Assembly (NCBI GenBank): GCA_964187785.1
Contig: OZ076409.1
Coordinates: 74,464,001 to 74,528,000 of the forward strand
DNA from: Amphiscolops sp. MND2022
Taxonomy: Eukaryota
Direction: 5' to 3'
Length of the DNA: 64,000 bases
The notes under the pieces were generated by a model. The model saw only the letters and a program-made list of their open reading frames with translations, had not been told where the DNA came from and did not search any database. Positions 5,862 through 64,000 of this stretch are shown piece by piece; within the stretch, counting starts at the first letter, position 1, and each line of letters begins with the position of its first letter. The position numbers and the translations under genes are program-made.

Positions 5862-7141
5862 GTGGCCGGAAATTTTTTTTTTCAGCAAAATCTTTGCCAT
5901 TGGGGGAGGGGCCCCGGATGGCCAGTAGTTCGGCTTGGCTACCTGCAAAATCAGGTACAAAAAAACACGATCTCAAAATTGGCCCGTCAGAATTCGCTCA
6001 TTTTTTGCATGCGGCCCTAGAATCAATATATAAGAACAAAGTCCTGCTGACGTTTTACCCAAAAAACATTTTTTGTTGACCAAAAATAACATTTTTCATG
6101 CCAAAATGACCGTTTTTTCACATTTTTCAACTTTGAGAGCTCATATCTCGTTCCCAAGTGCCCGGAGCGGTTCGCCCGTGAACTGCAAAATTGCTCAGCG
6201 TTGTTAGCGGAGTGCGTGGACAAATTTTGGTCCAAATCGGACTCAAACTCGGGGAGATATAAACGGATTTTTGGGGGTTTCCGGGGTAAATTTTTTAACG
6301 GTCCAGCTTATCTTTGCCATTTTTTGGAAAATGTACTCGCCTAAAGGCCTCCCCCTGGCCGAATTTACTCCCAGCAAAACCATTTGGCCCTAAATACGGA
6401 GTTTCAGCGTTCTAGCATTTCCGGGCGAAAAGTTGTGGGACTTAGAAAAAATTCAAAATTTTTCAAAAAAATTTTTTTTTTCGTTTTCCGGCCCCCAATG
6501 AAGGGGAACGACCCCCCAACTAGGATTTTTGGTGAATCCATGCGAAAAGGTCTTGTTTAGTGGAGAAAAATGCCGTCTAGAGCGACTTTTTATCTTAACT
6601 TGACGTTGACTTATGTCGTTTTGAATTTGATATTAGTATGTGTTGAGCATGTGAAAAGTTGAATATTTCAGTTGTTCTTTCGTGTTAGCCATTGAGATAC
6701 AAGCTGTAGTGATCAAATTGTGATTTTTTGCAGTTTCGTGGTGCTTTTGGTGTATTTTGATTCATTTGATAAAAAAGTTGTTCTTTATATATTGACAATT
6801 TTGGTGTATTGATTCAAATGAACATGAAACAGTTGAGTACATTTCATCTCCCTCTTGAGGGAGATGAGAATGTACTCGCTAAAGTCCTAGTACTATGGCC
6901 CGTTTTTGTTTTTATCAGACGTAGATACTGCCAACGGATACTTTTTGTTGGTGCAACTTTCCTGTGCACAATGTCTTTAGAAGCTAGAAAACTCTATGTC
7001 TCTAGCTTACTTCTCCTACAAATTCGTCACCAACGTCAACGCCACACACTCTCACTAACGCCCACCGTCTGTGGGCATGCCGAGGCATGCCCTTCGACGA
7101 CGTATGCCAAATAGCGCCACAGGGCGCCCAATTTTGTCTAG
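5862..7141 (+). mobile_element. Short unit family B copy 1
   Basis: Near-identical over its full length to 29878-31155 (GTGGCCGGAAATTTTT...GGGCGCCCAATTTTGTCTAG) but with different neighbours on both sides. Confidence 0.85.
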
Positions 7142-9695
7142 GTGGCCGCGTCTTTTAGATGGACTTTTAGCCCTGAGGCGCGGGTAGGGTCCTGCGCCGA
7201 AACAGAGAAATTATACTACTGCACATAGCCCCGGTCCAGACACGATCTCGAAAACTGACCGTTAGAAATTCCTGAAAATTTGCATGTGGCCCCCAATTGG
7301 CGAGCAATGAAAAAGTGTAGGTGGTCGTTTTTCCCAAATTCCACTGTGAGAGGAGATATATGAAAAAAACGGACCCCAAAATGACGAAATTTTCACTTTT
7401 TGACCAAAAATGTGACATTATCTCCTCAGACAAGGCTCGGAGCAAAATTTGTCAGAACCCAAACCTGCAGCAGACTGTTAGAGCAGTGCACACAGTAAGT
7501 TTGAAGGAAATCGGATAATCACATGTGGAGAAATTGACGTTTTTCCGGCGAAATTTTTCGCAAATGCAGTCTATCTCTGCCGTTTTTTGCCCAAAATTTT
7601 TCCGAGACCTTCTCCTAAAGGCCTCCCCTGGCCCAATTTCCTCCCAAAAAAACCATTTGGCCCTAAATACGAGGTTTCAGCGTTCCAGCATTCCCCAGTG
7701 AAAAGTTATGGGACTTAGAAATTTTTCAAATATTTTCAATTTTTTTCTAAAAAAGTTCAGGCCGCCCAAAGTGAAGAAACTTCCACACAACTAGTATTGC
7801 AAGTGAATGCATGTGGAAAGCCCTGCACTTGACGAGAAAAATGCCGTTTAGAACGTCTTTTTATCTTTACTTGATGTTGACTTATGATCTTTTGAGTAAC
7901 GTATAACACGTGATCACAGTAGTGAAAATCCTAATTTTCAATAATTTTCAAACAAAAACGCATGAAAAGAATCTGGAAAGGTTCCGATGGGTCAGTCGGG
8001 ATGTCTGAAGCATGTGTACATTCCCGTAGTGTATAGCGGATGTTTTGGGACTTATTAGAAATTGTGATATATTTTATACAAGTCTTTGTTTCTCATAGAA
8101 TCTTATGCAGTTGAGTACATTCCATCTCCCTCTCAGGGGAGATGTGAATGTACGTTTGCCAAATGCCTTGTAAAGTTCACATGTTTGATGGACTTAACTA
8201 AAGAAACAAGTGTGAGTTGCGTTTGCCGAATCGCTACAGCAAAAAATACTAAAACTTTAGTCAGATTGAATGGTTTTTGTCGTTAGTGTTTCTTCTTGTA
8301 TAGCCGACTTCCACATCCAATTATCAACGCCCACCGTCCGTAGGCATGCCGAGGCATGCCTTTCGACGACGTATGCCAAATACCCAATGCCACACAGTCT
8401 TTCCCCGCTAGGTGCCGGTGTATTTTTACACAATGGGGGATGTTGCGCGTGTGGGGAGGGTCCCTGACGCGCTTCCGTGGTTTCGGGTCTTCTAACCTAT
8501 GATAGCGTGACACCTGACTTCGATCTCGTAAACTAGCCGTACGATTTGGCTGAAATTTGGCACACGTACCCCCCTCGGCACGGTGAAGATGATTTCCTAC
8601 TGACGTTTTTCCCGCTAAACATTTTTTGTTGACCAAAATAACGGTTTTTGGGGTAAAATTTTCAACTTTTTTTAAATTTCATCTTATATCTCGCCACGGG
8701 TACACGCTAGCGCTTCCAAACCTTGCTGACGAAAGTTTGCAAACTGTCTCAGGAATGCTGTGTGAAATTTTCAGCTCAATCGGACTCAAACTTGAGGAGA
8801 TATAGCGTTTTTCCGGAGCGGGGGGGTTTCATTTTTCTAACGGTCCAGCTTATCTTTGCCATTTTTTCGAAAATGCACTCGCCTAAAGGCCTCCCCTGGC
8901 CGGTTTTATTCCCAGCAAAACCATTTGGCCCTAAATACGGAGTTTCAGCGTTCCAGCATTCCTGGGCGAAAAGTTGTGGGACTTAGAAAAGTTCAAAAAA
9001 TTTCAAAAATTTTTTTTCCGTTATTTGGGCCCCCAAAGTGGGGGAAAAGACCCCCCAACCAGTAAAGCAAGTGAATGCATGTGCAAAGCCCTTGTTTAGA
9101 GGAGAAAAATGCCGTTTAGAACGTCTTTTTATCTTGGCTCAACGTTGACTTATGACGTTTTGAAGGTGATGTTTGGATGTGTAAAGCACGTGAATAGTAA
9201 ACGTTATGAGTATTTATCTGATCTGAAAGCCATTGAGATGCAATATGGTTTGCTCAAAACGTAATTCATGGCAGTTTGGCAATCAATCAACACCCGTTGT
9301 CGTTTGACATACTTTTTTGTTGTTATAAAAAAAATTTTGTGTAATTATTCATTTTTTTCTCATCAAATAACTTGAAACAGTTGAGTACATTCCATCCCCC
9401 CTTCCGGGGGAGATGAGAATGTACTCGCAAAAAGCTCCGAATTACGGCCCTTACCTTCCCGAGCTACGCAGTATAAGGATTGCATATTGGTTCCGACATT
9501 TTCATAGAGTTAAATCTTGGTAATCTGTCTGGATATGCAGAAAAATCAGCACGTGCCTTTTAATACCAAGTTGCTTACAACGACAATTATTTTATATCAA
9601 CGCCCCCATATTTATCAACGCCCCCCGTCCGTGGGCATGCCGAGGCATGCCCTTCGACGACGTATACCAAGATATGCGTTAACGCGTTAGCCTAG

Positions 9696-11083
9696 GTGGT
9701 TGGGGCGGTCCCCAGAACGCACAAGGAGGCGCGGGGAGGGTCCTGCGCCGACGTAGAATAATTTCATATAATACTAGTATCCTACATGGGTGTTTTAGAG
9801 GCGATTTTGGAATCTAACCGTAGGATTTGGATAATTTTTTGCATGCGGCCATAACTCGAAATTCTAAGAACTTTTTCTTACTGTCATTTTCCCCGCAAAT
9901 TGTTTTTCGTTGACTTATGGCCGAAAAACCGGAAATAACGTCCTTTTTAGACGTTATATCCGAAGTGTCGTCATAACTTTTTTCCAGGGCATGCTAGCGT
10001 TCTCGTTCACTTTTACACTTAGTTGCAGCATCTCAAAATACAACTGGTGGAAAATTTTGGTTGCATTCGGATCACCCCCCACCGAGATAGTAGGGTTCCC
10101 CCCTCCAGTTTTACCCCCCAAATTTGCAAAATAGCCAATTTTGAGCATGAAGCCGAGGATTTAGCGTACCCGCACCCTTCTGATGTTTTGTTGTACGTAT
10201 TGGGGTCAATCTGACCACATGTGTGGTTTTCACCCCCAACCCCCCCTGGGACCGGAAATGACATTTTTTTGTGTTTTTTGGCAGAATTTAGCCTTTTTCA
10301 TTATTAGGCAGTCGTTTTAGGGACTCTTAGCAGGATATCGAAATTGAAATACAACCTGATCACAACCCAGTGACAACATGTTGGCCACTTGGAGGTATCA
10401 TCATGACCGGAAGTGGGGTCAACCCCCCTTTTTGTGACCGCTTTTTGACCTTGTGCACCAAAATGCCAACATCTTGAGGCCTAATGAGGCATTCAAATCT
10501 GTACAAAGATAAAATGTTAGACAACCGAAGTCCCGGAAGATCTTTAGCATATACCGGAAGTTACCCCCCATGACCGGAAGTTACCCAATGTGACCGGAAA
10601 TGGTCCAAAAATTAATGTAAAGTTGAATTTTTCACTACTTCAAGACCACTTAATTGAAACTTTTCAATCTCAAAACTAGTGTACTGGCTTGTTTTGCTGA
10701 ATTTATGGAAATTGATGAGCTCTATCGCCCCCGATAGCCTTCGAAGTTGACCTTCCGTCAACTTTGGAGGCTATCGATAAAGAAAAATGAACAACAAAGT
10801 ACATTGTTGCTCTCGTTTTTTCCCGTTGTTTTTCCTCAAACATTCTTGAGACATATACATGGCCGTTAGTTGAAATCAATATTTAGGCCATGTTATAGCT
10901 GGAGCAGCGAAGCGTTACACAGACTAGTGTGGTTTTGAAATCACACTATTTAAATTAACAACTGACCGTCTTAGTCAACTCCACACATTCATACCAACGC
11001 CCAACGTCTGTGGGCATGCCGAGGCATGCCCTTCGACGACGTATGACGAATCCATTCCAACGACACCCGCAGTCCTCAGCTAG
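9696..11083 (+). mobile_element. 1.39-kb single-copy unit, ACCGGAART-rich, with GATAGCC-type hairpin
   Basis: Bounded by CTAG|GTG; hairpin at 10733-10775; standard core near 11005-11045. Confidence 0.75.
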
Positions 11084-51100: not shown

Positions 51101-53696
51101 CCACAGGGCGCAAACTTGTCCGCTAGGTGGCCGGGAATTTTTTTTCTGCTCAATTCTTTGCCAACTGGGGGAGGGGCCCCTGGTGGCTGTTACCCGAAAT
51201 ACATACCTACCCAAATCGTCCGCTCCGGATACGATCTCAAAACTGAGCCACACAATTTTCCTGAAACTTTGCATGTGGGCCTAAAATGAGATTGTAAGAA
51301 CAATGATATAGGCGTTATTCCTGAATTTTTTCAAAAAGTTGGTCAAAAACGCAAAAAATGGGTCAAAATTGACCTCTTTTTCAACTTTTTTATTTTTGAG
51401 AGCCCATATCTCGGAACGAGGTGGCCGTAGCGGGCCGCATAAGGACTCCGTTTTTGCTGGGCACTTGATGAGGAGTACGTGGACAAATTTTCGTCCAAAT
51501 CGAAGTAAAATTGACTGAGTAATGAGTGATTTTTTTGTGACCTTTTTGCGAACCCTATTGTATCTCTGCCATTTTCCGCCAAAATTTTCAAAAGTGGTTC
51601 TACAGGAGGCAACCCCTGCCCAATTTTCTGCAAAACAAAACCATTTGGCCCTAAATACGAGGTTTCAGCGTTCTAGCATTCCCCGGTGAAAAGTTATAGG
51701 ACTTAGAAATTTGTCAGTGAAACGCAAAATTTGTAAATTCAACTTCCGGTGCCCAAAAGTCACAAAACTTTCACACAACTAGTATTGCAAGTGAATGCAC
51801 GTGGAAAGTACTGAAATAGACGAGAAAAATGAGCTATAGAACGACTCTCTACCTTAACCTGACGTTGACTTATGATGTTTTGAATGTGAGCATCCTATCT
51901 GATTTTAATGTCAAAAATGAGATTTTGTAAGTCATGTCTCATCAAAAACTCATCGGAATACGTTCAATCATCCCCATAGCTGTTCAATTGCCGTGGCTTA
52001 GTACAGCAACGCCATTGAATGTCTTTGGACCCATTTTGAAAATAATCGATACCGTCTTATTCGTCCGATATCACGAAACAGTTGAGTACATTCCATCTCC
52101 CCCTTCCTTCTCGTTTTAATTTTAGTAGTGCAACGACTAAAAAATTAATGTCAGTATCTAGTACATATGGAATGCTTCCAATGAGCACATTAGCCAACAA
52201 GCCGAAATGTCCTTTTCGCGTCATATGGCACACTGGAGTTTCACATAGTAAAAAAATGCCCCATCGGAGATTTTGAAAAAAAATAAATTGAAGCACGACT
52301 GTAATTGAAACGTAAGAATTTTTTTCCCGTAAATTTAGCAGCACGATTTGAGTAGTTCACGCCGAATCGAGCCCGAAGTTAGGATTATATTAGGCTCCTC
52401 AAAGTCACACTGGAAATGATTTAAATTTGCTGACCGGAAATTATTTCAGTGATGAACGAAATTTCTGTTGCCGCACCTGCATTTTCAAAAGCATACATTT
52501 GAGGCCGAAAGTTTTGGCAAACCAAAAGATATTGTAACAAAAAACCAAAAGGAGTTTCGTTGTCTACTAATCCGTTGCATAGCCTCTGTTTCGCAATCAG
52601 ACGATGATTCGGACTGGCATTATGTGAATCAGCGTTCTTATATTCTTCTTATGAAAAATGAACAGCGTGATACGTTTTTTCCGGTCATTTTTGAAAAAAT
52701 CGTTGCAAAACCTGTTTTACAAAGTCTTTTGGTCTCAAGTGTATGATCTTTCATCAATTTAAAAAAAACTCGATTTAATAAAACTTTATATAAAATGATA
52801 CCAAATAACTCCTTTTTGAGAAATGGAAGGCCCCTTATAAATGTTGAGATTTATACGTTATGAAAGACTTTAGATGGTGTTCAATTTTTGAGCACGAAGT
52901 GTAAAATATCGATAATCAAAAGGCCGGGAACGGACAATGTCGTCGCAATATCGAAAGCTCAAAATTGTAAAAGAAAGAATCTTTGTGTGTTTTGTAACTT
53001 CTGTCGGTTGCAAATTATAAACAAATTGAAAAGAGGAACCTGAGAGACTTTGAATACTTCAAAACACGTTTCAAAATGAGATTTTCGATTAGTTTCACAA
53101 GGCTGAAAAACGTATCCGAGACGAATCTTCGGGAATTTTGACATCCATTGTGCCACATAATATCGAAACAAACGAAGAAGAAACCCTCAGGTGCAATCCA
53201 AAAAGTTTCCAAAAAAGTCGCATAGTGCTGAAAAAAAAACGGAGTGAAAAACAGCAAAATGGAATCCTTCGTAGGTCTTTGAGGTTTTGGACGTCAAAGT
53301 TTTTGTTTTGAACGATGTTCTGGCGCTTTGAGTATGTTCTGGATGTCCGGTGTTCAAGTCGATGTTGTTGAACAAATAAACTGAAAGTAAACCTTACGTG
53401 TCTAAAAGATACCCACTGTAAGAATCGGGCACTTTTCTTTAAGAGCGCGGACTAAAAACACAAACCATGAAATACTCTGTTGGGCAAAATTTCTTATTCA
53501 GGAATTAGTTGAAACTTCACATGGAAATTCAGCACTATATCTATTACTTAATCAAAAATTAGGTAAAAAGTATTGAACACAAAATTACGAAAAACATATC
53601 ACACAGTGTCAAAAAATGTTAAAGGGGAGACTTCAGAATTGTCCGGTTTTGTGTGTTACGTTCGAAAAAAAACACTTGGCAAAAACTTGGTTGCGT

Positions 53697-53887
53697 TTCC
53701 CAGGTTATCGTTCAGAACAATTTGAACAAAAAATATACTGAGAACTTCGATTAAATATACTTCACTCATTTCATCCCACATTCATCCACATTCAGTTCCC
53801 AGGTTATCGTTCAGAACAAACTGAACAAAAAATATACTAGGATCTTCGATTAAATATACTTCATTCATTTCATCCCAGCTTCATCCT
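53697..53887 (+). repeat. Two-copy direct repeat, period 99 bp
   Basis: TTCCCAGGTTATCGTTCAGAACAA...CTTCGATTAAATATACTTCA.TCATTTCATCCCA begins at 53697 and again at 53796. Confidence 0.9.
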
Positions 53888-54005
53888 GGAGGTATCCTTG
53901 CTAAAAAATAATTAGAGATGTTTTAGTAAAACGTTATATCCAAACTTTGAAAATGTTGAAAATGTTACATCCGAACTTTGATGCTGTCAAATTATTATAT
54001 AAATC

Positions 54006-54291
54006 TAAATCGTAAACTAAGAGGGTTAGAAGATTTTTAATGACATATTTGGAATCGTATAGAGGGGGCGCCAGGGGGCGCGCGGCTGACCAATATCCAT
54101 TTGGCGCAACATGTGATGACGCTGGAGGCACGGCCGCTCAATTACACTACTGATGACAAGGTGTTGAGCCTCCAACGTCATCACATGTTCAGCCAAATGG
54201 ATATTGGTCGGCCGCGCGCCCCCTGGCGCCCCCTCTATACGATCCCAAATATGTCATTAAAAATCTTCTAACCCTCTTAGTTTACTATTTA
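54006..54291. mobile_element. Foldback / MITE-like long inverted repeat
   Basis: Arms 54006-54129 and 54168-54291 (~124 bp, few mismatches) around a 38-bp spacer; no target-site duplication identified. Confidence 0.75.
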
Positions 54292-55770
54292 CATTCATTC
54301 ACCCGAACTTGATGATGGTTTAAATATTGGTACTAAATAATAATATTGAAATGAATAAATAATTTAAAAATATATTTGAAAACGTATTTAAATGTAAAAG
54401 GTATTCAAAAGTTAGTATACAGACGAACATATTCTAAATATGTACACCACCAAAAAACACTTTTTATGTTTCAGCATGTCCAAGGACTTTTAAAATTGAA
54501 TTTGAATAATTTATTTAGATTATGAGACTTTGCAAAAAAGAAAAGTTTGCAGTACTGAGTTTGTTCATCACTTGATTCAAAAGATGACAAAAATTTGGCG
54601 AAACAGCATTATGTTTTTTGTGTGAAATGATTAAACGCATTTTGACACTCAACTTACTTTCTTGTCCTGTTCTTTTTCAACAGAAGTAGTGAACAAAATT
54701 TTGCATTGATGTAAAGCTTGAAATCTCCCACTTTTGATTTCCTGTTTGATCAGGAAACTTTGAAAACTTATTCTTAAAAATTTTACGTTTCACTGACGAC
54801 TTACATCATTCAACACTATCATCAACCATTTGCTCCGCAACTGTTATTTTAGTTGGAAAACTTGACGTTTGAGAAAGTACATCTGTTTCATTCATTTTTG
54901 ATCTTCTTTAATTTTTCGATGATAGATGATAGCCAACCCCAAGATCTATGAAACGTAACTTTCTATAAAATGCTTCGTTGGGCCAAATAATCATTTCTGC
55001 GTCATCTAGAAAATTATAAAACTGATGCGGCCTATTTCAAACTAAGGGTTCTGTCGTCGAATCCTTGTTTTTTTTAAAAAAAATTAACACTCTTGCAGGT
55101 AATGACGAAAGCGAGTAATGGATAAGTTCGCTGTGGACTTTCACTATATTGTTAAGAGTCAATGCATCATCATCACTTACTAGTAGTGCTTTATTCTTAA
55201 AGTTCCAGTGCTTATTCTTTATACAAGTAGCAGAACTCTGAGTTGCAAAATGGATGTTTTCGGTATTTTTTGCAAACTCACAAAATATAAATTTCTGTGA
55301 GAAATCGATCCGGAATCTATGAATTTACTTCTGAAAGTTGGCATAAAATATTTTATACCAATCATTTTTGTAAAAACGATTAAATATACCACAGTTGAAT
55401 TCACCTAATTGGTATCGCTAAGGATCGAATAAAATAGTACGATTAATTACTTACGAATTTACCGGATATTTCTTTGGTCGTCACATCGGGTCTCAGATAC
55501 ATACGAATTAAACAAAAATCCGAATTATCCGGATACGAATTATTTACCGGAGTTGAGTTTATATTATTTTTCCCAGTAATTCCATGCTATAATAACTGAT
55601 CGTTATGCAGCATTGCGAAGTTGAAAAATAACAATTAGGGCTTAGTTTCGACTTAAGCTTGTTATTTTCCGCCACCACAATTTATTGTTTTATGCGTTTT
55701 TTCCAAATTCTGCCAAATCTCCACAATCTCCATGTCAGTTGCTCTCTGTTAGTTGATATTTGAAATACGA

Positions 55771-55810
55771 TGGCTCAGTTGGTAGTGCACCCGTCTATCA
55801 ATCGGTGTTT
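55771..55810 (+). other. tRNA-like 5' fragment (Pol III A-box), possibly a decayed SINE head
   Basis: TGGCTCAGTTGGTAGTGCAC resembles a tRNA D-arm/A-box; no intact T-arm or acceptor stem. Confidence 0.3.
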
Positions 55811-56680
55811 TGGCCACTAGCACTGTTCAAATAACGCTTTTGAGGGTCCAAGTTTTTTTCTAGTGGTCGCAGAGGCGCCGTATTCACACCACGTAAGCAG
55901 TGCCTCTAGTATTTGATAAAAAAGGTGCAATTTCTATCAAATTTTAGTACAGCGATTTTAAGACTGTGCAATTTTCGTAAAAACAATCCTAGGTACCCTC
56001 AGGCATCATAAAACCACTTGATATCAAGCTAGAGCATAATTCCACAAATCAAAGATCCCATATAACGTGTCAGTGTTTAGTTGGTTCATGGGCACCAATA
56101 AAGTTATTTCTCTAGCCAAGAACAAAGGGTTGAGCAAAAGGTTAGTGTTGGATACTGACTCTAGCACCGTTTAAAAGAGCGCTTTTGAGGGTCCGAACCT
56201 TTTTCTAATTGCCATAGAAGCGTCTAATTGACATCGCGTAAGGTGTGCCCATGTTATTTGACGAAAATGGGTGCATTTTGGACCAACTCCCCGTATAGAG
56301 ATTTTCGGGCGGTGCCAGAAGTTCACTTCGAAGAGCGATTTTCGTGAAAACGTTCTTAGGTGTCCTCAGCCATCATAAAACCACTTGAGATCAATCTAGA
56401 GCACACGTTCACATATCAGAGGTCCGATAGGTTTCGTTAGTGTTCTTTAGTTGGTTATTGGGCACCATTAAAGTTATTTCTCTAGCCAAGAACGATTTAA
56501 GTGTTGAGCAAAAGGTTAGTTTTGGCTACTAGCATCGTTTAAAAGAGCGCTTTTGAGGGTCGGAAATTTTTCGTAGTCGTCGTCAAAGTTCCACCACGCA
56601 AGTTGTACTGAAAGTATTTGACAAGCGGGTATTAGAGAATTTGGACTAACCCCAACCCTAGCGATTTTCTAGCAGCCAAA
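55805..56680 (+). repeat. Diverged tandem repeat, ~345-370 bp period, about 2.5 copies
   Basis: CTAGCA..GTT.AAA...CGCTTTTGAGGGTC at 55817, 56161 and 56529; GGGCACCA.TAAAGTTATTTCTCTAGCCAAGAAC and CATCATAAAACCACTTGA each occur twice. Confidence 0.8.
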
Positions 56681-57102
56681 AAAAACTTTTTTCTAACCCT
56701 AAGACCTTAAAACCCCATTTGTATTTTTAATATTTCTACTTTAGCAGGAATATTATTGTAACCTCAAACTTTCTACTTTTTTTCAGTACATATTTTCGGA
56801 CGATCTGAATAATTCAGATATTTTGTTCGGGAGTGAGTGTGAACGTGAGACTCAAAATTCTCAAGCTGCCGACGACAATTCGTTTCTCGTGCGATAAAAC
56901 GAGCGAGTGGTAATTATGCATTCGTACGCCGAATTCATTGACATGAAGCGAATGAGTATTAATTATTCGTTCGCCGAGAGCTTTGGCCGCAATTTCTTTT
57001 TTAGTGACATTAGCCTTTATAACTATAATGAACATGTATCTATTGGGACACGATTCAAAAGTTTTTGTTCAGTTATCAATAATCAAAAATCAAAACCACT
57101 CT

Positions 57103-57370
57103 AAAAATGCAAGCTACGTAATAATTGGAGACAGCCATTTAAAACGCATTAACCCTAATCAAATCCAAGGTGATGTGACTGTTGTTGCCCGTGATTGGCC
57201 TTCGAGCAAATCGTATTATCGAAAACTTTCTCCAACAATATCCAACTAAAGAGGTCTGCTTCCTCCTCGTCGGTAGGAATGACATAAGTTTTCATCCAAC
57301 CTATAACCTACATCCCAAAGCTGCACAGCAAACTGCTCACCGAATAATCAGTTGTCAAATTTTAATTGAA
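57103..57370 (+). pseudogene. Frameshifted SGNH/GDSL hydrolase-like fragment
   Basis: Frame of 57121 gives YVIIGDSHLKRI (block I GDS). After a +1 shift near 57190 the next frame gives VIGLRA (block II G) and CFLLVGRNDI (block III GxND). No block V DxxH seen. Confidence 0.55.
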
Positions 57371-57562
57371 ATTTTTTTCCGAGCTCGAAAGATTTTAAAT
57401 AGACCTGCACGTATGTTACAGCCGCCTTTAACAGTTTTTTCGTTTGTTATATCATGTTTACGGACATTTTTTGATAATTTGATAACATTTCGGCTGGTTA
57501 ACTTTTCGGCTCTGCGTGTATGAAGCTGCAAAAGTGAAAGGTACGTTTAAACGGCCTTTCAT

Positions 57563-57860
57563 TGGGTTGACCAAACGCCCCAGTAGGTCTGGCACGCGTT
57601 TCGCCACCGCGTTTCCTGAAGCCGCTGAGATAGGTAGGTTGTTTTCAATAAAAGGTAACTCAAAAATTTTTACTTATGGATTGACCAGACGCCCCAGTTG
57701 GTCTGGCACGCTTTTCGGCACCGTGTTTCCTGAAGCCGCTGAGATAGGTAGGTTGTTTTTCATAAACGGTAGCTCACAAAATTTTTTCTTTATGGGTTGA
57801 CCAGACGCCCCAGTTGGTCTGTCACGCTTTTCGGCACCGCGCTTCCTGAAGCCGCTGAGA
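57563..57860 (+). repeat. Three-copy tandem repeat, period 114-116 bp
   Basis: TGG(G/A)TTGACCA.ACGCCCCAGT.GGTCTG...TTCCTGAAGCCGCTGAGA at 57563, 57677 and 57793. Confidence 0.9.
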
Positions 57861-57900
57861 AAGGTGAATTTAAATCCCTTCAACATTCTGCGTTTGAACT

Positions 57901-57980
57901 CCTAGCAAGACCATCTAGCCCTTTTCACGCCATTTCAGCGTTCCAGCATTCCCGCGGGTATAAGATAAATGACTTAGAAT
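57901..57980 (+). other. Solo copy of the array's conserved internal motif F
   Basis: CCTAGCAAGACCATCTAGCCCT...TTTCAGCGTTCCAGCATTCCC...GACTTAGAA is colinear with the array's CCCAGCAAAACCATTTGGCCCT...TTTCAGCGTTCCAGCATTCCC...GACTTAGAA, including a 21-nt exact match. Confidence 0.8.
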
Positions 57981-58015
57981 TTTAGGCATTGTTTTCTAGA
58001 ATGGAGTTAACTTGC

Positions 58016-58352
58016 CTTAGGTTTCCTACGTTTACGATTCTAACGCTTAGGTTTTAGGCTTGCATTTGTTAGGCTTAGGCTTCTCTGGTTTAAGTTTTTA
58101 GGCTTAGGTTTTTTAGGTTAGGTTCATTAGGCTTTGCTTTTTTGGCTTAGATTTTATAGGATTTGGTTTATTACGCTTAGGTTTCTTAGTCTTAAATTTC
58201 TTAGGATTAGGTGTTTCAGTTTAGGTTCTTAGGCTTAGTAGGCTTAGGTGTCTTAGACTTAGGTTTATTAGGCTTAGGTTTCTTAGTCTTAGGTTTTAGG
58301 ATTAGGTTATCTAGGATTTGATTCATTAGGCTTTTGTTTGTTAGGTTTAGGT
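58016..58352 (+). repeat. Degenerate TTAGG(C/T) telomere-like microsatellite
   Basis: Dense TTAGGC/TTAGGT/TTAGGA units with T-rich spacers, e.g. TTAGGCTTAGGTTTCTTAGTCTTAGGTTTTAGGATTAGG. Confidence 0.8.
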
Positions 58353-58964
58353 TTTCTAAATTATGTCTCTGTTTTAAGTTTCAACGGTTAACTAAAATTT
58401 TCCTATTAAAAAAACCTCAAAACTTTTTATTTCTGTATATACAAGGTCAGCAGCTCTTCGTCTTCGAGCCCAGTAGGAACTGCAGCCGGAAAAAAAGATA
58501 TGAACATTTTTAAAACATTTTGCTTTTCTTCAAGTATTTTTGATATCCCATTTGATTACATTCGAATTCAACTTTTCCCAAGATTATTTCAACAATCAGT
58601 TTTCAACTTCTTGTTTGTTCAATAATTCCAAGATACAAGTTACAGTCTTCAAAACCAAGGTTCAAGATCTAAAAAATCAACAAGCAATACGATAACCACT
58701 TGTGTTAATTAAAAACAAGATATCTGAACAGTTGGTACTTTCAAGACTTCAAATGTTGCAAAAAACTCTTTATTGGATTCAAGAAATCAAAATGTAACAC
58801 AAGACGGACTTCTAAACTTCAAATACGAGTTCCTGTTGGCATATACGTCCTGCAAAAATTGCTCAATGTCAAATTTCATATTTACTTCACTCAATAACGT
58901 TTGTTACATATGTTTCCGCAGTTTTATTTAGCTTCATGAATTCCTAGGTATCGCTGTATTTGTA

Positions 58965-59120
58965 ATGTCTGGTGTTTGGTTATGGTTCTGTGTGTGCTTG
59001 TGCGTGCGGTATCAGGTTGTCTGCACGATTTTGTGCGTGTGCTGTGAAGTTGTGTCCTTGTGCTTTTGAGTGTCTTTGTATGGTGCGGCTGTGTGCGTAT
59101 ATGTGTGTGGACGTTTGTTT
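58965..59120 (+). repeat. TG-rich low-complexity tract
   Basis: Degenerate (TG)n, e.g. TGTGTGCTTGTGCGTGCGG...GTGTGCGTATATGTGTGTGG. Confidence 0.6.
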
Positions 59121-61087
59121 GTTTCTAATATCAAATGAAAAAGGATTGTATGTTGTTCAGGTTACCTTTCATTGACGTGAATCAATCGAATCCAGATAAA
59201 ACGAGCTAAGAAGCGCAAAATCAAGGCAAAGACGTGGTCACTTCTTCACCCAGCATTTCGAACAACAAGTGTATATTTCATTGGTTAATTTGAAAGGGTC
59301 CAGTACTTAGAACGTTTTGTTACTATATGTTTTGTTTTGCTTTTGACATGCGCTCTCCTTTGGAAACAAGTTAATCCTTTTAGTATCCGAGGTATGAAAG
59401 TTATATGAGAAATGCCCGATTTGTAAAAATTATAAATCCATCGAACGCAGCGACCTCTGTGATCTCCTAATAGGCCACAATGATGTCATGTTTCATGTTT
59501 GCAAAAATCCAAACCCAAAAACTGCTCTACATAAAGCTGGAAACCAGCAATTGTCAATTGTCTTATATCGATCAATGTCTATAGGTTTTCGAAGCTTGAA
59601 GTTTGAATCTGTAAGCTTTTTTGAAAAATGGAATTGATATATCTTTCTTTAGAAGTTGTGGTCTTCAATTATTCCACAATTTTCCTTGAAGAGCAGCTTT
59701 TTACCTTAAATTTGGCCTCCATGTAGATAAACAGGACAAAGTGCAACCTTGTATACAAAATAATTGAAGACATTTGTAAACTGCCTGAGATGATCTGATC
59801 TTTCAATTTGATTCTTTGCTCCTCAATGATGTAATTTTTTGATTAAATGAAATTAATTTTTTGATTAATTGAACTTGACACATTCTCGTTTATTATACCT
59901 TCTATTATAACGTAGAAAACACCGTTTGTTCGAAAACAGTTTTATTTGAAGTAATCCAATGTCAATTTATTTAGCTGAAACGGTTCAATGAACATTAGTC
60001 ATTGTCTGCACCTAAATTGCGTTTTAATAATTTGTCTCGGGGAATCCCTAGCGTTAACGTTTCAATTGTTTCTCGCTCTCAATTGTGATTCGTGATAACT
60101 TTAATTTTTCACACACTTTTTAACAAGTAAATGATTGAGGTAAAAATCACTTAAACCCTACAATAACAAAACAAGCAGTTAATATAAATTACATTGCTGT
60201 GAAACTGATTTAACAAGAAAAATAACAGTTAATATTTTCAGACTTTCGCATGAACAGAGTCTCATTCCATTTTCAAATTTCAAGAAAATCCATCTCATTC
60301 ATTCAAGAAGGAAGCGACACTTAATAAAATGGGAAACAAAAACGTATGTACCATGCTGTTTTTATTTTCTCCCAATTTAGCAACATTAAAGAATAAGCTT
60401 TTTTAAACTTCAGCGAAAACGGAACAGGTGTGGTGTGTGTCAAACCTTCATTGGTAACAGTTTCGCCTTTTGCAGTATGCATCAACCACGACATGATGAT
60501 GCAGTTAGTGTTTAGAATAATATAAAATAAAACCAATTAAAACCAATAAATTGCTGTTATAATCATCAAACTTGATTTTAAGGCCCACACAGACATCCAT
60601 GAAGCCCCTAGTTGCAAAAGACGTCAATTAGAAAGTAAGTGGATCTATTTAGTAGAAAAAATACATTCTCAAATAGATTTTATAGACACCTGTGTGTCTC
60701 TACTGAGCTATGTAAAAAAGCCATTATCAAACTACATCAGGTCAAATTTCTCCCATTATAAATGAACAAATCGATTGTATTTGGCCGTTCGCTGCTTCCA
60801 GTTTCTTGTCTCAACCGTCTTTTTTGTGATACGCTATCTGTTTCCATGAGTTCTGCCATTGTCCCACGAACCACGTTTCTTTTGTTTAAGGCTCCAATAT
60901 TGCAGGACCATCTTCATCAGTTGTTCTACACACACACCTTCCTCTGTCACCAGAGCAACTTACGATTGACGAACACTTACGCCAAACTGCTAGTGTTGGA
61001 TCTTCCGAACATAATGACCATACTGTCCCGTCTTCATCGACCTTTGAAACTCCAACTAGTAACCCTCACGATGACCACTTCAATTTG

Positions 61088-64000
61088 ATGCACAAGCTGA
61101 AAAATCATTTAGTATCTATGACCGGTGAAACCATGAATACAAACAACACGTCATCCATAGGTCTTTCCTGTGACAAATGTTTGCGGAAGTCAACAGTGTC
61201 CCACGAGATTAGCGTTTGTACTTACAACACCTCTGAACTTCAGATTAAGAACAGAAAGTTTGGTCGAAAACTTCCCTCAACTGATTACATCAACCTTTGT
61301 GCCCCTTGTCTTGAGTACACGACATCTGATTCCACAACGTTCAGAACTGCATGGCCGAGTATTTTGTGCTCCTATTGGGGTAATGAAGACAAAGATGAAG
61401 CCATTATAGAAAAACTAATTTCCTTTCTTCCTTGTACAATTATTGAAATGTTCTGTCATTCAATGGACAAATACAGTCAAGTTTTCAAAAAAGCCATACA
61501 GCACACTAACTTGTTGGTAAAAGACAGAACATCCGACAGAACTCTTCTCCTACAGGCTAAAATTGAACTCAAGGGTGCTGATTTGAAGCGTAATTTTGAC
61601 AAATTTCCTCTTCCCGATGTTATTTGTCCCTGGGGCTGCTGGGATTTTGTGGAAAGATGTCAAACACTGTCGTTCGAATTTTTCCTTGCCAAAATTGATA
61701 AAGATTTTCGCTTTTCGACCAACCAGGAATCGCTGTTAATGGGTGTTACATCCAATTTTCCAGAGGGTTATACTTTGCTGCAACAATTTGAGATTACACC
61801 CGCTGTAATTATAGAAGAAGATGGCCACTTTGCATTTCTTACTTGTTCTAAGCATTCGGGCGAAACTTTGCAATATCTTCATCCCCCCCGAAACCCAATA
61901 CTTAGCAGTGTCTCTCCCAACAAACCAGAGCGACTGGCTCTAACTCAACAGCAACTGAATATAGTTAAAACTGGCAAACCGAAGTTTAACTCTCACTCTA
62001 GTCACCTAATCGAAGAAAGAGGAAGTTTTACCGGCATCAGCAGTAGCACTCTTCAATTCCCCACGTTTCTAGAAAGTTCAACTCCATTGAACGACCTTTC
62101 CGAGTTTGTTATTTCAAAAGGACGTTCCGATGTCTACCCCCTGGTCGATTACTTTTTAGAAAACAATATTGTTGATCAAAATTTTGCTGACTTCTTGTTC
62201 AACAGTACCCTCAATCTCAGCCAAAATGAAATTGCAGCTGCAATTTCTGATTCAACGAATGTGTCTCTTTACGACGCTTTCAAGTTGCAGATGCATTTGA
62301 ATGAGAACCAGAATACTGAAGAACTGGAGATTTCTTTCCCCGTCTACGCACACAATCTCGGAAAAAACTCTGAATATGGATGTGTGCCACCACGTGTTTT
62401 CTCATCTGGAGCCATCGCAATTGTCTTTGAAGGATTAGGTCGTTTTACGGCTTCATTTCTTCCGAGTTTGCTCAAGTCTGATATTGACTCTCTTCGCCAG
62501 CTTTCTCAAAAATTCTGCAATCTTTTGTTTTTGACGGGGTCATCTAGACGTCGGATTCGCGCCGCCAAAGCTAAGGTTTCGATAATTGCTGAAAACATCA
62601 CTGAGCAACTTTCTGACAACTCTTCATCATTGAATAGCTTCTTCGAGTATCTGGTTGCTGGAAATTTAACTGCCTTCAAAGTGCCATCTCGTTCGTTCAC
62701 AAGTCTTCCCCCGACTGCTACAAACTCTGTCGATGGGCCGCTTTTTGTTTTTGCTCCCTCCCGGTCAGAGCGTGATTGTATTATACCACCAGATACTTTG
62801 ACACATAATTCGAAGATTTATCAACTTGTCTTCTTGAGCAAAAAGTTTTGGAATGCTGAATTTTACTGCCGCCATCAAAGAATTAATTCTGCATGGTTCG
62901 AGTCTTTTTCGTGTTTGAATTCGTTTACAGAGACCAGTTTTGGTAACTTCTACGATTTCGCAGCAAAAGGAACTTGGGATGTTGCTGTCTACGAGAAGCA
63001 GGATTCGTCTGATAGCCAAACGATGCTTAGAAGCTTTTTGAAAAGTATCGGGGGTCAGAACAACCTATCATGCGGAAGACACAATTGTCTATTGATTCAA
63101 AGGAATCCATCGGATACATTGACTTGCTTCAACACTTCATGCAGGAAAAAAGCCAAATGGGTATGCCCAAAAGTCGATTGCAATACTGGGGTGTGCAAAC
63201 AACACTCTGAAGACCTGATAAACGGTTCTTCAATGTGTGCGGTTACAAGTAATAAAGAACGAACTGTTCCACTTTTCCCAGAGGAATTTCAAAACCAAAA
63301 TGATAATAGTTTGGACAACGTAGCAAATAATGAACCTAACAGTCTTGAGTTACAACCTGAGTTAGACCTAATTTTTGAACCAGACAACTACTTGACCATG
63401 TCTGTTGACACATCAGATCAGACCCTTCCATTATCGTCCAATTCTGGTGTTCCTTTTGTCTCGTACTTCACTGAAGAAACCCACACGAAACGAGTACCTA
63501 CAAAAGTACTACTCAACAATTACTTGAATGTTCTTCAACGCTCCAAAGTACCTATTTGGACAACCAACGCCCACAAAAACTTTCTGCAGAGCATTGTAAG
63601 CAGAATTCCCAATACTTCTGCCCCACTTTTATACCCAGAAGCTCTCTTGTTCCCCAGTATTTTTTGGAAGCAACAAGAAGATGGCTCCTATGCAGGTGCT
63701 CTTCCATCCTGCCTACTCCAGTCAGACAAACTGAATACCAAACTTGGATTTGCAACTGTTTCGAAACATCTCTGGAACAGACTAACGAATGGGAGCTTGC
63801 TTACATCGAGCAGTATCGGCTATGCAAGTTTTGCTTTTGACATCAAAATGAACCAAGAGCTCAATAGAAGTCATAGCAACTACATTGTGTTCAAAAGAGG
63901 TTTTGAAGATTACTTGGGTGCAGATGAGGCCTTGAAGCTCCCCAATTGTGCCATCAAATGGGATGGACTCGACAGCTCGAAGAGGGTCCAAGAAGTTGCA
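61088..64000 (+). CDS. Large ORF (at least 971 aa, runs off the window); probable N-terminal part of a Helitron-like Rep/PIF1-helicase protein
   Basis: Hand translation is stop-free from 60890 to 64000; first ATG at 61088 (MHKLKNHLVSMTGETMNTN...). Motifs: CDKC...CAPC, AWPS, CPWGC (61625-61639), LTCSKH, YLHPPRNP, a Cys/His cluster at 63071-63205, and LLYPEALLFPSIFW (63626-63667)...GALPS...HLWNRLTN...FAFDIKMN. From memory this order precedes the HUH Rep domain in Helitron-like PIF1-annotated proteins; no search was run. The ORF is solid, the product call less so. A possible splice acceptor TTTCTTTTGTTTAAG ends at 60890. Confidence 0.75.
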   Translation, partial: MHKLKNHLVSMTGETMNTNNTSSIGLSCDKCLRKSTVSHEISVCTYNTSELQIKNRKFGRKLPSTDYINLCAPCLEYTTSDSTTFRTAWPSILCSYWGNEDKDEAIIEKLISFLPCTIIEMFCHSMDKYSQVFKKAIQHTNLLVKDRTSDRTLLLQAKIELKGADLKRNFDKFPLPDVICPWGCWDFVERCQTLSFEFFLAKIDKDFRFSTNQESLLMGVTSNFPEGYTLLQQFEITPAVIIEEDGHFAFLTCSKHSGETLQYLHPPRNPILSSVSPNKPERLALTQQQLNIVKTGKPKFNSHSSHLIEERGSFTGISSSTLQFPTFLESSTPLNDLSEFVISKGRSDVYPLVDYFLENNIVDQNFADFLFNSTLNLSQNEIAAAISDSTNVSLYDAFKLQMHLNENQNTEELEISFPVYAHNLGKNSEYGCVPPRVFSSGAIAIVFEGLGRFTASFLPSLLKSDIDSLRQLSQKFCNLLFLTGSSRRRIRAAKAKVSIIAENITEQLSDNSSSLNSFFEYLVAGNLTAFKVPSRSFTSLPPTATNSVDGPLFVFAPSRSERDCIIPPDTLTHNSKIYQLVFLSKKFWNAEFYCRHQRINSAWFESFSCLNSFTETSFGNFYDFAAKGTWDVAVYEKQDSSDSQTMLRSFLKSIGGQNNLSCGRHNCLLIQRNPSDTLTCFNTSCRKKAKWVCPKVDCNTGVCKQHSEDLINGSSMCAVTSNKERTVPLFPEEFQNQNDNSLDNVANNEPNSLELQPELDLIFEPDNYLTMSVDTSDQTLPLSSNSGVPFVSYFTEETHTKRVPTKVLLNNYLNVLQRSKVPIWTTNAHKNFLQSIVSRIPNTSAPLLYPEALLFPSIFWKQQEDGSYAGALPSCLLQSDKLNTKLGFATVSKHLWNRLTNGSLLTSSSIGYASFAFDIKMNQELNRSHSNYIVFKRGFEDYLGADEALKLPNCAIKWDGLDSSKRVQEVA

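What the first reader, a model, noticed from the sequence alone, without database searches (positions are those of the whole stretch)
60890..64000. Unannotated >1000-codon open frame missed by the ORF track
Stop-free for 3111 nt to the window edge; the only convincing coding sequence in 64 kb. It has several Cys/His clusters, a segment (YQLVFL...FYCRH...WF...WDVAVYEK, ~62820-63000) loosely like the C-terminal half of a USP/peptidase C19 fold without the catalytic His, and the YPEALLFPSIFW block. Its intactness suggests a young or selected element. A possible acceptor at 60890 implies upstream exons.
Basis: partly seen in the sequence, partly recalled or inferred. Interest (0 to 1): 0.7.

Follow-up and report, generated by a model that had tools for sequence, protein, structure and literature searches.

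The report
Divergent Helitron transposase, front half
The long reading frame is the front part of the mobility enzyme of a rolling-circle transposon (Helitron type) from a widespread, apparently undescribed branch that carries a catalytically dead deubiquitinase fold and a new zinc-binding region; this particular copy is probably broken just beyond the window.

Summary
The 1037-codon open frame (60890-64000, +) is real. It is the N-terminal ~44% of an intronless ~2350-aa Rep-helicase (RepHel) transposase. Two 99%-identical copies (P0171, P0173) run on through HUH, YxxKY and Pif1 motifs. A protein identical to the window (P0234) passes the HUH motif, then stops ~115 codons past the edge; the rest is a separate ORF (P0170), so this copy is probably broken. 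Residues 497-705 model as a USP/C19 fold (Z 11.7) with no catalytic Cys+His pair in 0 of 137 relatives; residues 80-495 form a confident Cys/His-rich region with no structural match. The family is large (690 clusters at 50%), reaches Perkinsus, usually ends in a GIY-YIG nuclease (decayed here), has a lengthened HUH motif and no DUF6570. In Rep and helicase trees it is a long-stem clade apart from sampled HLE1 and HLE2 (99/97); sisterhood with HLE2 is not rejected. It differs by motif from the 2026 Paramecium clade. Upstream exons are not needed. Termini and expression are untested. Verdict: new variant of a known kind.

The parts
60890..64000 (+). Open frame, N-terminal 1037 codons of a RepHel transposase (full length about 2350 aa); continues past the window
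60887..60890 (+). In-frame TAA bounding the frame; overlaps the AG (60889-60890) proposed as splice acceptor (untested)
60944..60946 (+). Codon 19 (CTG): position where six relatives have their called start
61088..61135 (+). In-frame ATGs at codons 67, 77, 82; sisters P0171 and P0173 are called from codon 77; likely start (inferred)
61127..62374 (+). aa 80-495: well-predicted region with conserved C94/C97, C137/C140, C246/C250, C319/H322/H331 (probable Zn sites); no fold match (best Z 3.5)
62378..63004 (+). aa 497-705: USP/peptidase C19 fold without catalytic Cys or His (pseudo-deubiquitinase)
63071..63205 (+). aa 728-772: second Cys/His cluster (C728 H731 C746 C751 C759 C764 C769 H/C772), probable two-Zn finger
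63275..63484 (+). aa 796-865: acidic, predicted disordered linker
   Evidence: pLDDT < 50
63485..64000 (+). aa 866-1037: pre-Rep block with YPEALLFPSIFW (63632-63667), leading into Helitron_like_N (match starts at about 63983)

Best explanation
The frame encodes the front of an intronless RepHel transposase of a Helitron-like rolling-circle transposon. In intact sisters the HUH/two-tyrosine Rep nicks the element's 5' end and the Pif1 helicase peels off the strand, which is circularised and integrated elsewhere (mechanism inferred from Helraiser work, recalled and as summarised in PMC13085455 section 14; not tested here). The window part adds a Zn-binding region, a dead USP fold (most likely a ubiquitin/SUMO-binding or scaffolding module, inferred) and a second Zn finger. 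The family is a long-stem clade of its own with a lengthened HUH motif and an ancestral C-terminal GIY-YIG nuclease, decayed in this subfamily. This copy is probably disabled by a lesion between HUH and the catalytic tyrosines and could move only in trans.
For: Shown: P0171 and P0173 are 99.2% and 98.9% identical to aa 77-1037 and continue through FxTxTC, EFQTSQGNLPHIH, RYIAKY and GKPGTGKS, with Pfam Helitron_like_N and PIF1. PIF1 in 17 of 17 and Helitron_like_N in 13 of 17 long homologues, OTU in 4, GIY-YIG in 6. At least 17 clusters at 90% identity are tied together by shared contig lengths, several with many members: a dispersed multi-family repeat (inferred). USP fold Z 11.7, rmsd 3.9, 187-196 aligned; 36 chains at Z >= 8; Cys and His together in 0 of 137. 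Rep tree: family 99/97, HLE1-type 100/99, HLE2-type 99/93, HLE1+HLE2 98/90; helicase tree family 100. P0234 equals window aa 104-1037 exactly and ends 8 residues after leaving the sisters at P0171 residue 1076; P0170 from a contig of the same length resumes at 1087.
Against: Termini, hairpins and target sites were not found (no genome held), so transposition is inferred from protein architecture and copy number. Helitron_like_N scores are near or under the cut-off (26-35 bits against 28.9) and a family Rep profile found nothing in the PDB, Helraiser included. The AU test does not reject family+HLE2 as one clade (p 0.108); the root is a long branch, and the HLE2 set lacks algal/fungal Helitron2, Proto-Helentron and HELIANO subgroups c/d. 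That P0234 and P0170 are this locus rests on identity and contig length, and the break may be an assembly error.
Confidence: 0.9

Rival explanations
1. The family is a very divergent branch inside HLE2 (for example related to the GIY-YIG-bearing moss family HelenSM92 or to UCH-bearing subgroups c/d), not a separate clade.
For: Pre-Rep block and PLG..W.R.EFQ resemble Helitron2 rows of Bao and Jurka's alignment and align with an HLE2-type protein (prob 71, E 4e-5); AU p 0.108 for family+HLE2; HELIANO reports GIY-YIG in one HLE2 family and UCH and 2OG oxygenases mostly in HLE2.
Against: No DUF6570 in 0 of 17, 0 of 20 and 0 of 6 family proteins against 7 of 12 HLE2-type controls (7 of the 8 long enough); no AP endonuclease; motif 1 is HLE1-like (FxTxTC); HUH spacing never canonical (0 of 144); sampled HLE2 is monophyletic without it (99/93).
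Confidence: 0.3
2. The copy in the window is intact; the stop in P0234 is a sequencing or assembly indel, or P0234 comes from another identical copy.
For: Other clusters also show split pairs on one contig (P0189+P0254, P0258+P0265, P0283+P0284), as indel errors would give; the frame has no other lesion in 1037 codons.
Against: P0234 matches the window at 934 of 934 residues after its start while sisters differ at 8 or more; the same assembly yields many unbroken 2300-aa ORFs.
Confidence: 0.25
3. The gene belongs to an endogenous virus or other rolling-circle replicon rather than a transposon.
For: Distant relatives lie in gene-dense, intronless contigs with unannotated ORFs; HUH Rep and SF1 helicase also serve replicons (recalled).
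Against: No relative confirmed among 28 pattern matches in viral contigs; no capsid or polymerase family among 25 neighbouring ORFs; the shared neighbour looks like a POT1/RPA OB-fold protein (0.90, a lead), a known Helitron passenger; no other gene in the 60 kb upstream.
Confidence: 0.06
4. It is a domesticated host gene with upstream exons spliced onto 60891.
For: Pyrimidine tract plus AG at 60889-60890; CTG rather than ATG at codon 19.
Against: Many dispersed near-identical and diverged copies; relatives are single ORFs; ATGs at codons 67-82 precede all conserved residues; probable break downstream.
Confidence: 0.04

Closest known systems
HLE2 (Helentron/Helitron2) RepHel transposases
   Same: Rep + Pif1 in one long ORF; optional N-terminal OTU; C-terminal extra nuclease; E.l.FP.lF pre-Rep block and P[IL]G...R.EFQ context
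   Different: No DUF6570, no AP endonuclease (GIY-YIG instead), HUH motif EFQxxxGNLPHIH instead of EFQxRGSPHxH, motif 1 FxTxTC, pseudo-USP and two Zn regions inserted before Rep
HLE1 (canonical Helitron; Helraiser, PDB 7LCC)
   Same: HUH/Y2 Rep, Pif1 (7LCC hit E 3e-4 over the helicase), motif 1 FxTxTC, LPH in motif 2; RPA-like passenger gene in relatives (lead)
   Different: About 850 aa longer; N-terminal 1000 aa unrelated by sequence or fold search; no RG and two extra residues in motif 2; separate clade
HLE Paramecium (PMC13085455)
   Same: A clade outside HLE1/HLE2; long intronless ORFs; copies sit among satellites
   Different: One copy read by eye (Hel01Copy001) has canonical EFQERGSIHFH and no GIY-YIG tail; 3052-3592 aa. 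Not placed in my tree.
HELIANO 'unclassified' HLEs and HelenSM92 (PMC11417382)
   Same: Unclassified elements occur in 19 genomes (sponges, polychaetes, springtails, mosses and others), some with OTU; HelenSM92 has GIY-YIG
   Different: Not described by motif or architecture in the passages seen; sequences not available to me, so identity with this family is open
USP/C19 deubiquitinases and pseudo-USPs (USPL1, CYLD, PAN2, Sad1)
   Same: Fold of aa 497-705 (Z 10-11.7)
   Different: Minimal (~210 aa), no Cys box or His box; embedded in a transposase ahead of Rep. HELIANO's UCH is in a separate ORF; an HLE1-type control has an active-looking UCH at its C-terminus, without sequence similarity to this family

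Membership tests
Helitron-like elements (superfamily) | HUH Rep with motif 1, HUH and YxxKY | tested here: met
   In 99% sisters P0171/P0173 and across the family; P0234 has motifs 1-2, P0170 has YxxKY
Helitron-like elements (superfamily) | Pif1-family SF1B helicase C-terminal to Rep in the same ORF | tested here: met
   PF05970 E 6e-9 in P0171; in this copy probably in a separate broken-off ORF
Helitron-like elements (superfamily) | Dispersed multicopy families | tested here: met
Helitron-like elements (superfamily) | Defined termini with hairpin, no target-site duplication | not testable with these tools
   No genome or sister DNA held; no GC-rich perfect hairpin of stem >= 7 in 52100-60950; metagenome pairs ran to contig ends
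HLE1 | Motif 2 E[FWY]QKRGLPH and placement in HLE1 clade | tested here: not met
   0 of 144 with RG or 5-residue spacing; outside HLE1-type clade
HLE1 | 5'-TC, 3' hairpin + CTRR, AT target | not testable with these tools
   ends not located
HLE2 | DUF6570 upstream of Rep | tested here: not met
   0 of 43 family proteins; control 7 of 12
HLE2 | Placement within the HLE2 clade | tested here: inconclusive
   Outside 13 sampled HLE2-type rows; sister position not rejected; subgroups a, c, d and Proto-Helentron not sampled
HLE2 (Helentron) | C-terminal AP endonuclease | tested here: not met
   None; GIY-YIG instead; control 6 of 12
HLE2 | Asymmetric terminal inverted repeats, TT target | not testable with these tools
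   ends not located
HLE Paramecium | Clade membership | tested here: inconclusive
   Motif 2 of one copy is canonical, unlike this family (by eye); no joint tree
USP/C19 deubiquitinase | USP fold | tested here: met
USP/C19 deubiquitinase | Catalytic Cys and His | tested here: not met
   No Cys at aa 503-511 or His at 652-658 in the window; both present in 0 of 137 relatives, Cys alone 13, His alone 20; sites assigned by motif register, not by coordinates

The most novel reading that the evidence does not exclude
This is a further major clade of Helitron-like transposons, beside HLE1, HLE2 and the Paramecium clade, spread across protists and at least one satellite-rich eukaryote with many active families. 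It pairs Rep-Pif1 with a GIY-YIG nuclease where Helentrons use an AP endonuclease, and keeps a dead USP fold plus a zinc-binding region of new fold across its whole diversity, suggesting that the transposase reads ubiquitin or SUMO marks to find chromatin targets or avoid degradation. Its sequences fall under standard Helitron profile cut-offs, so it is probably under-annotated.
Probability: 0.55. Interest if true: 0.65.

Novelty: new variant of a known kind. Interest (0 to 1): 0.52.

Why it matters
Helitron classification rests on two clades plus one added in 2026. A large family (690 clusters at 50% identity) that scores 26-35 bits on Helitron_like_N, where canonical controls score 78-202, would be missed or mislabelled as 'Pif1 helicase' in genome annotation. 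It bears on the open origin of RepHel and on why Helitrons keep capturing deubiquitinase domains (OTU, VTD, UCH, Ulp1): here the domain is kept though dead, which points to binding rather than cutting. Intact 99%-identical sisters give ready material for a transposition assay. The window's own copy is probably a disabled member.

Tried and rejected
No whole genome held. Pfam on the window frame: 0 families; PDB by sequence: only E > 0.5; Rfam on the window: 0. Sequencing runs: none was listed, so splicing, expression and the break were not examined. Viral contigs: no relative and no canonical Helitron motif. ESM Atlas on aa 80-495: no usable hit. Fold searches on aa 80-495: no match, best Z 3.5; this does not show a new fold. 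Family Rep profile against PDB sequences: 0. Upstream OTU exon or second family fragment in six frames: none. Accessory OB-fold gene of relatives in the window: none by tblastn. Element ends from paired metagenome loci: shared sequence ran to contig ends. Link between the 1.29-kb satellite and the element: none shown. Similarity of the family to an active Helitron UCH: none. Earlier scan notes: nothing. Literature searches that found no description of this family; subscription journals and Repbase Reports are not in the library. The AU test was run only for family+HLE2.
Full report
Observation. The frame 60890-64000 (+) has no stop for 1037 codons and runs off the window; the next longest of 39 frames of at least 100 aa is 148 aa. 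Shuffling its bases 200 times gave at most 228 open codons. The default ORF list omits it because it is open at the edge. It has no Pfam hit and no meaningful PDB sequence hit. The window is eukaryote-like: bases 1-52107 are an array of ~1.29-kb units. The host was not determined.

Identity. A search with aa 600-1037 among longer proteins gave 17 hits of 1855-2752 aa; PIF1 is in 17 of 17, Helitron_like_N in 13, OTU in 4 and GIY-YIG in 6. P0002 and P0003 are 80% identical over the whole frame. Their cluster holds P0171 (2294 aa) and P0173 (2317 aa), 99.2% and 98.9% identical to aa 77-1037, which continue through Rep motif 1 (FFTLTC), HUH (EFQTSQGNLPHIH), RYIAKY and the Pif1 motifs. The frame is thus the N-terminal ~44% of a RepHel transposase; Helitron_like_N begins at about aa 1032. 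The YPEALLFPSIFW block corresponds to the pre-Rep motif seen in both Helitron1 and Helitron2 rows of Bao and Jurka's alignment, closer to Helitron2 (by eye), and the region aligns with an HLE2-type protein.

State of this copy. P0234 (1058 aa) equals window aa 104-1037 exactly, continues 123 residues through motif 1 and HUH, leaves the sisters after P0171 residue 1076 and ends 8 residues later. P0170 (1208 aa), from a contig of the same length, resumes at residue 1087 with YxxKY, Pif1 and the tail. I infer a lesion about 345 nt past 64000 that separates HUH from the catalytic tyrosines. It may be an assembly error; split pairs occur in other clusters too. At least 17 clusters at 90% identity are linked by shared contig lengths, so one genome seems to carry many families, some with intact near-identical copies (inferred).

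Start and splicing. Six relatives have their called start at the window's codon 19, which is CTG here; the window has ATGs at codons 67, 77 and 82 where those relatives have K, K/N and I, all before the first conserved Cys, C94. The caller writes M for ATG, GTG or TTG, so the ancestral codon is unknown. Residues 1-78 model as disordered. OTU-bearing relatives extend upstream in the same ORF, and no OTU or family remnant lies upstream in the window. Upstream exons are not needed, but were not tested.

Anatomy. A model from 40 sequences has pLDDT 76.9, pTM 0.79. Residues 497-705 match USP domains: Foldseek top hits are all USPs (best E 6e-4); VIA-align gives Z 11.7 to USPL1 and CYLD and 36 chains at Z >= 8; viral hits agree. 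By motif register the catalytic Cys falls near G507 and the His near N655; both residues occur together in 0 of 137 relatives that cover both sites (Cys alone 13, His alone 20), while G497 (141 of 149) and R661 (149 of 166) are kept. Residues 80-495 model well (pLDDT 81.6) and match nothing (best Z 3.5); C94, C97, C137, C140 and C246 are invariant, C250, C319, H322 and H331 are kept in 93-99%. A second cluster, C728-C769, is kept in 96-100%. Zinc binding is inferred.

Family. phmmer found 690 representatives at E <= 0.001 among 1.84 billion; named members are Perkinsus olseni proteins; 37 metagenome loci were confirmed among 276 pattern matches. A GIY-YIG pattern ends 68 of 91 full-length proteins (a rough regular expression that misses some Pfam-positive ones); the window's subfamily keeps only a decayed version. 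One locus adds Ulp1. Five unrelated loci share a neighbouring gene that looks like a POT1/RPA OB-fold protein (0.90, a lead only). Of 144 representatives of at least 1300 aa, 104 have 7 residues between ExQ and HxH, 21 have 8-9, 19 gave no match and none has the canonical 5 or RG; all 23 rows of the published alignment have 5 (by eye).

Placement. A motif scan of prokaryotic genome records returned 51 loci, mostly Helitron-bearing contigs that I take as eukaryotic contamination; I used 15 HLE1-type, 13 HLE2-type and 3 G2P-type Reps, leaving out short fragments and duplicates. Because they were chosen by the canonical motif they are no control for motif spacing. DUF6570 is in 7 of 12 HLE2-type rows scanned (four misses are cut short) and in 0 of 43 family proteins. 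The Rep tree (68 rows, 363 columns) gives family 99/97, HLE1 100/99, HLE2 99/93 and HLE1+HLE2 98/90; the unrooted helicase tree gives the family 100, with only two long HLE1 rows. Against this, family+HLE2 is not rejected (p 0.108), the outgroup is long, and much of HLE2 is unsampled.

Literature. HELIANO (PMC11417382; passages, section 22, supplement searches) has HLE1, HLE2 and unclassified elements in 19 genomes, some with OTU, and one moss HLE2 family with GIY-YIG; these may overlap with this family, but I saw no sequences. Arnaiz et al. 2026 (PMC13085455; abstract, passages, sections 14, 34, part 1 of 18, supplement 3 part 2) describe a Paramecium clade; one copy has canonical EFQERGSIHFH and no GIY-YIG tail by eye. 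Its supplements 5 and 9 and figure images could not be read. Passages of PMC3627910, PMC8788227, PMC6431247, PMC9741609 and PMC12730594 give two Helitron groups and active VTD deubiquitinases in Helentrons, proposed to protect transposition proteins. Eight searches found no description of this architecture; Repbase may hold members unnamed as a group.

Mechanism. Shown: domains, motifs, near-identical copies, loss of the USP catalytic pair. Inferred: rolling-circle peel-and-paste transposition by intact sisters; GIY-YIG as an optional target or flap nuclease in the slot Helentrons fill with AP endonuclease; the dead USP as a ubiquitin/SUMO-binding or structural module; trans-mobilisation of this copy. 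Termini, expression and activity remain untested.

Verdict. A Helitron-like transposase (0.9) of a probably undescribed deep branch (0.55-0.65); new variant of a known kind; interest 0.52.

Noticed in passing
window 1-52107: Array of ~1.29-kb units, interleaved with ~2-kb inserts; each unit has two GC-rich hairpins (27 copies of one anchor) and a CTAG some 30-40 nt after the second. It resembles concatenated non-autonomous Helitron/Helentron-type units (recalled resemblance); the array ends abruptly inside a hairpin at about 52107. No link to the RepHel element shown.
   Followed up: partly
window 58038-58355: Degenerate TTAGG/TTAGGC minisatellite: 26 of the window's 64 TTAGG words lie in 57982-58351. 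Telomere-like, 2.5 kb upstream of the ORF; Paramecium Helitrons insert into telomeric repeats, so worth checking in sister copies.
   Followed up: partly
window 53999-54298: MITE-like inverted repeat, 131-nt arms, 94% complementary, 38-nt spacer.
   Followed up: no
window 57563-57865, 53697-53886, 55817-56571: Short tandem repeats (114 nt x 2.6; 99 nt x 1.9; ~350 nt x 2 at 73%) between the satellite and the ORF; 57892-57983 resembles a piece of the satellite unit.
   Followed up: no
window 60762-61088 (+): 108-codon ATG-started frame overlapping the 5' end of the main frame in another phase; probably chance, could act as an upstream ORF.
   Followed up: no
L004:1183-2622(-), L019:10095-11372(-), L024:11400-12782(-), L030:7388-8728(+), L033:7173-8891(-): Conserved accessory gene of 430-570 aa beside RepHel in five unrelated loci, no Pfam hit, POT1/CTC1/RPA-like by Atlas features.
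   Followed up: partly
L019:1387-2286, L004:6284-7660, L003:6195-7079 and 7109-10066: Neighbouring ORFs with HxD...H patterns like 2OG-Fe(II)/TET-JBP oxygenases (by eye; no Pfam hit).
   Followed up: no
L003:2-6169: Family member with a C-terminal Ulp1 (Peptidase_C48) domain after GIY-YIG; P0035 has OTU after GIY-YIG: repeated capture of Ub/SUMO proteases.
   Followed up: no
L060:176-6106: HLE1-type RepHel with a strong UCH (USP) domain fused at its C-terminus (E 4e-35); branches basally in HLE1.
   Followed up: partly
L038-L088: About 40 prokaryotic genome records carry contigs with eukaryote-type Helitron transposases, most likely binning contamination.
   Followed up: partly
L008:1-209, L004:22-57, L033:6972-7015: Long palindromes near family genes in metagenome contigs; could be termini or assembly artefacts.
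   Followed up: no
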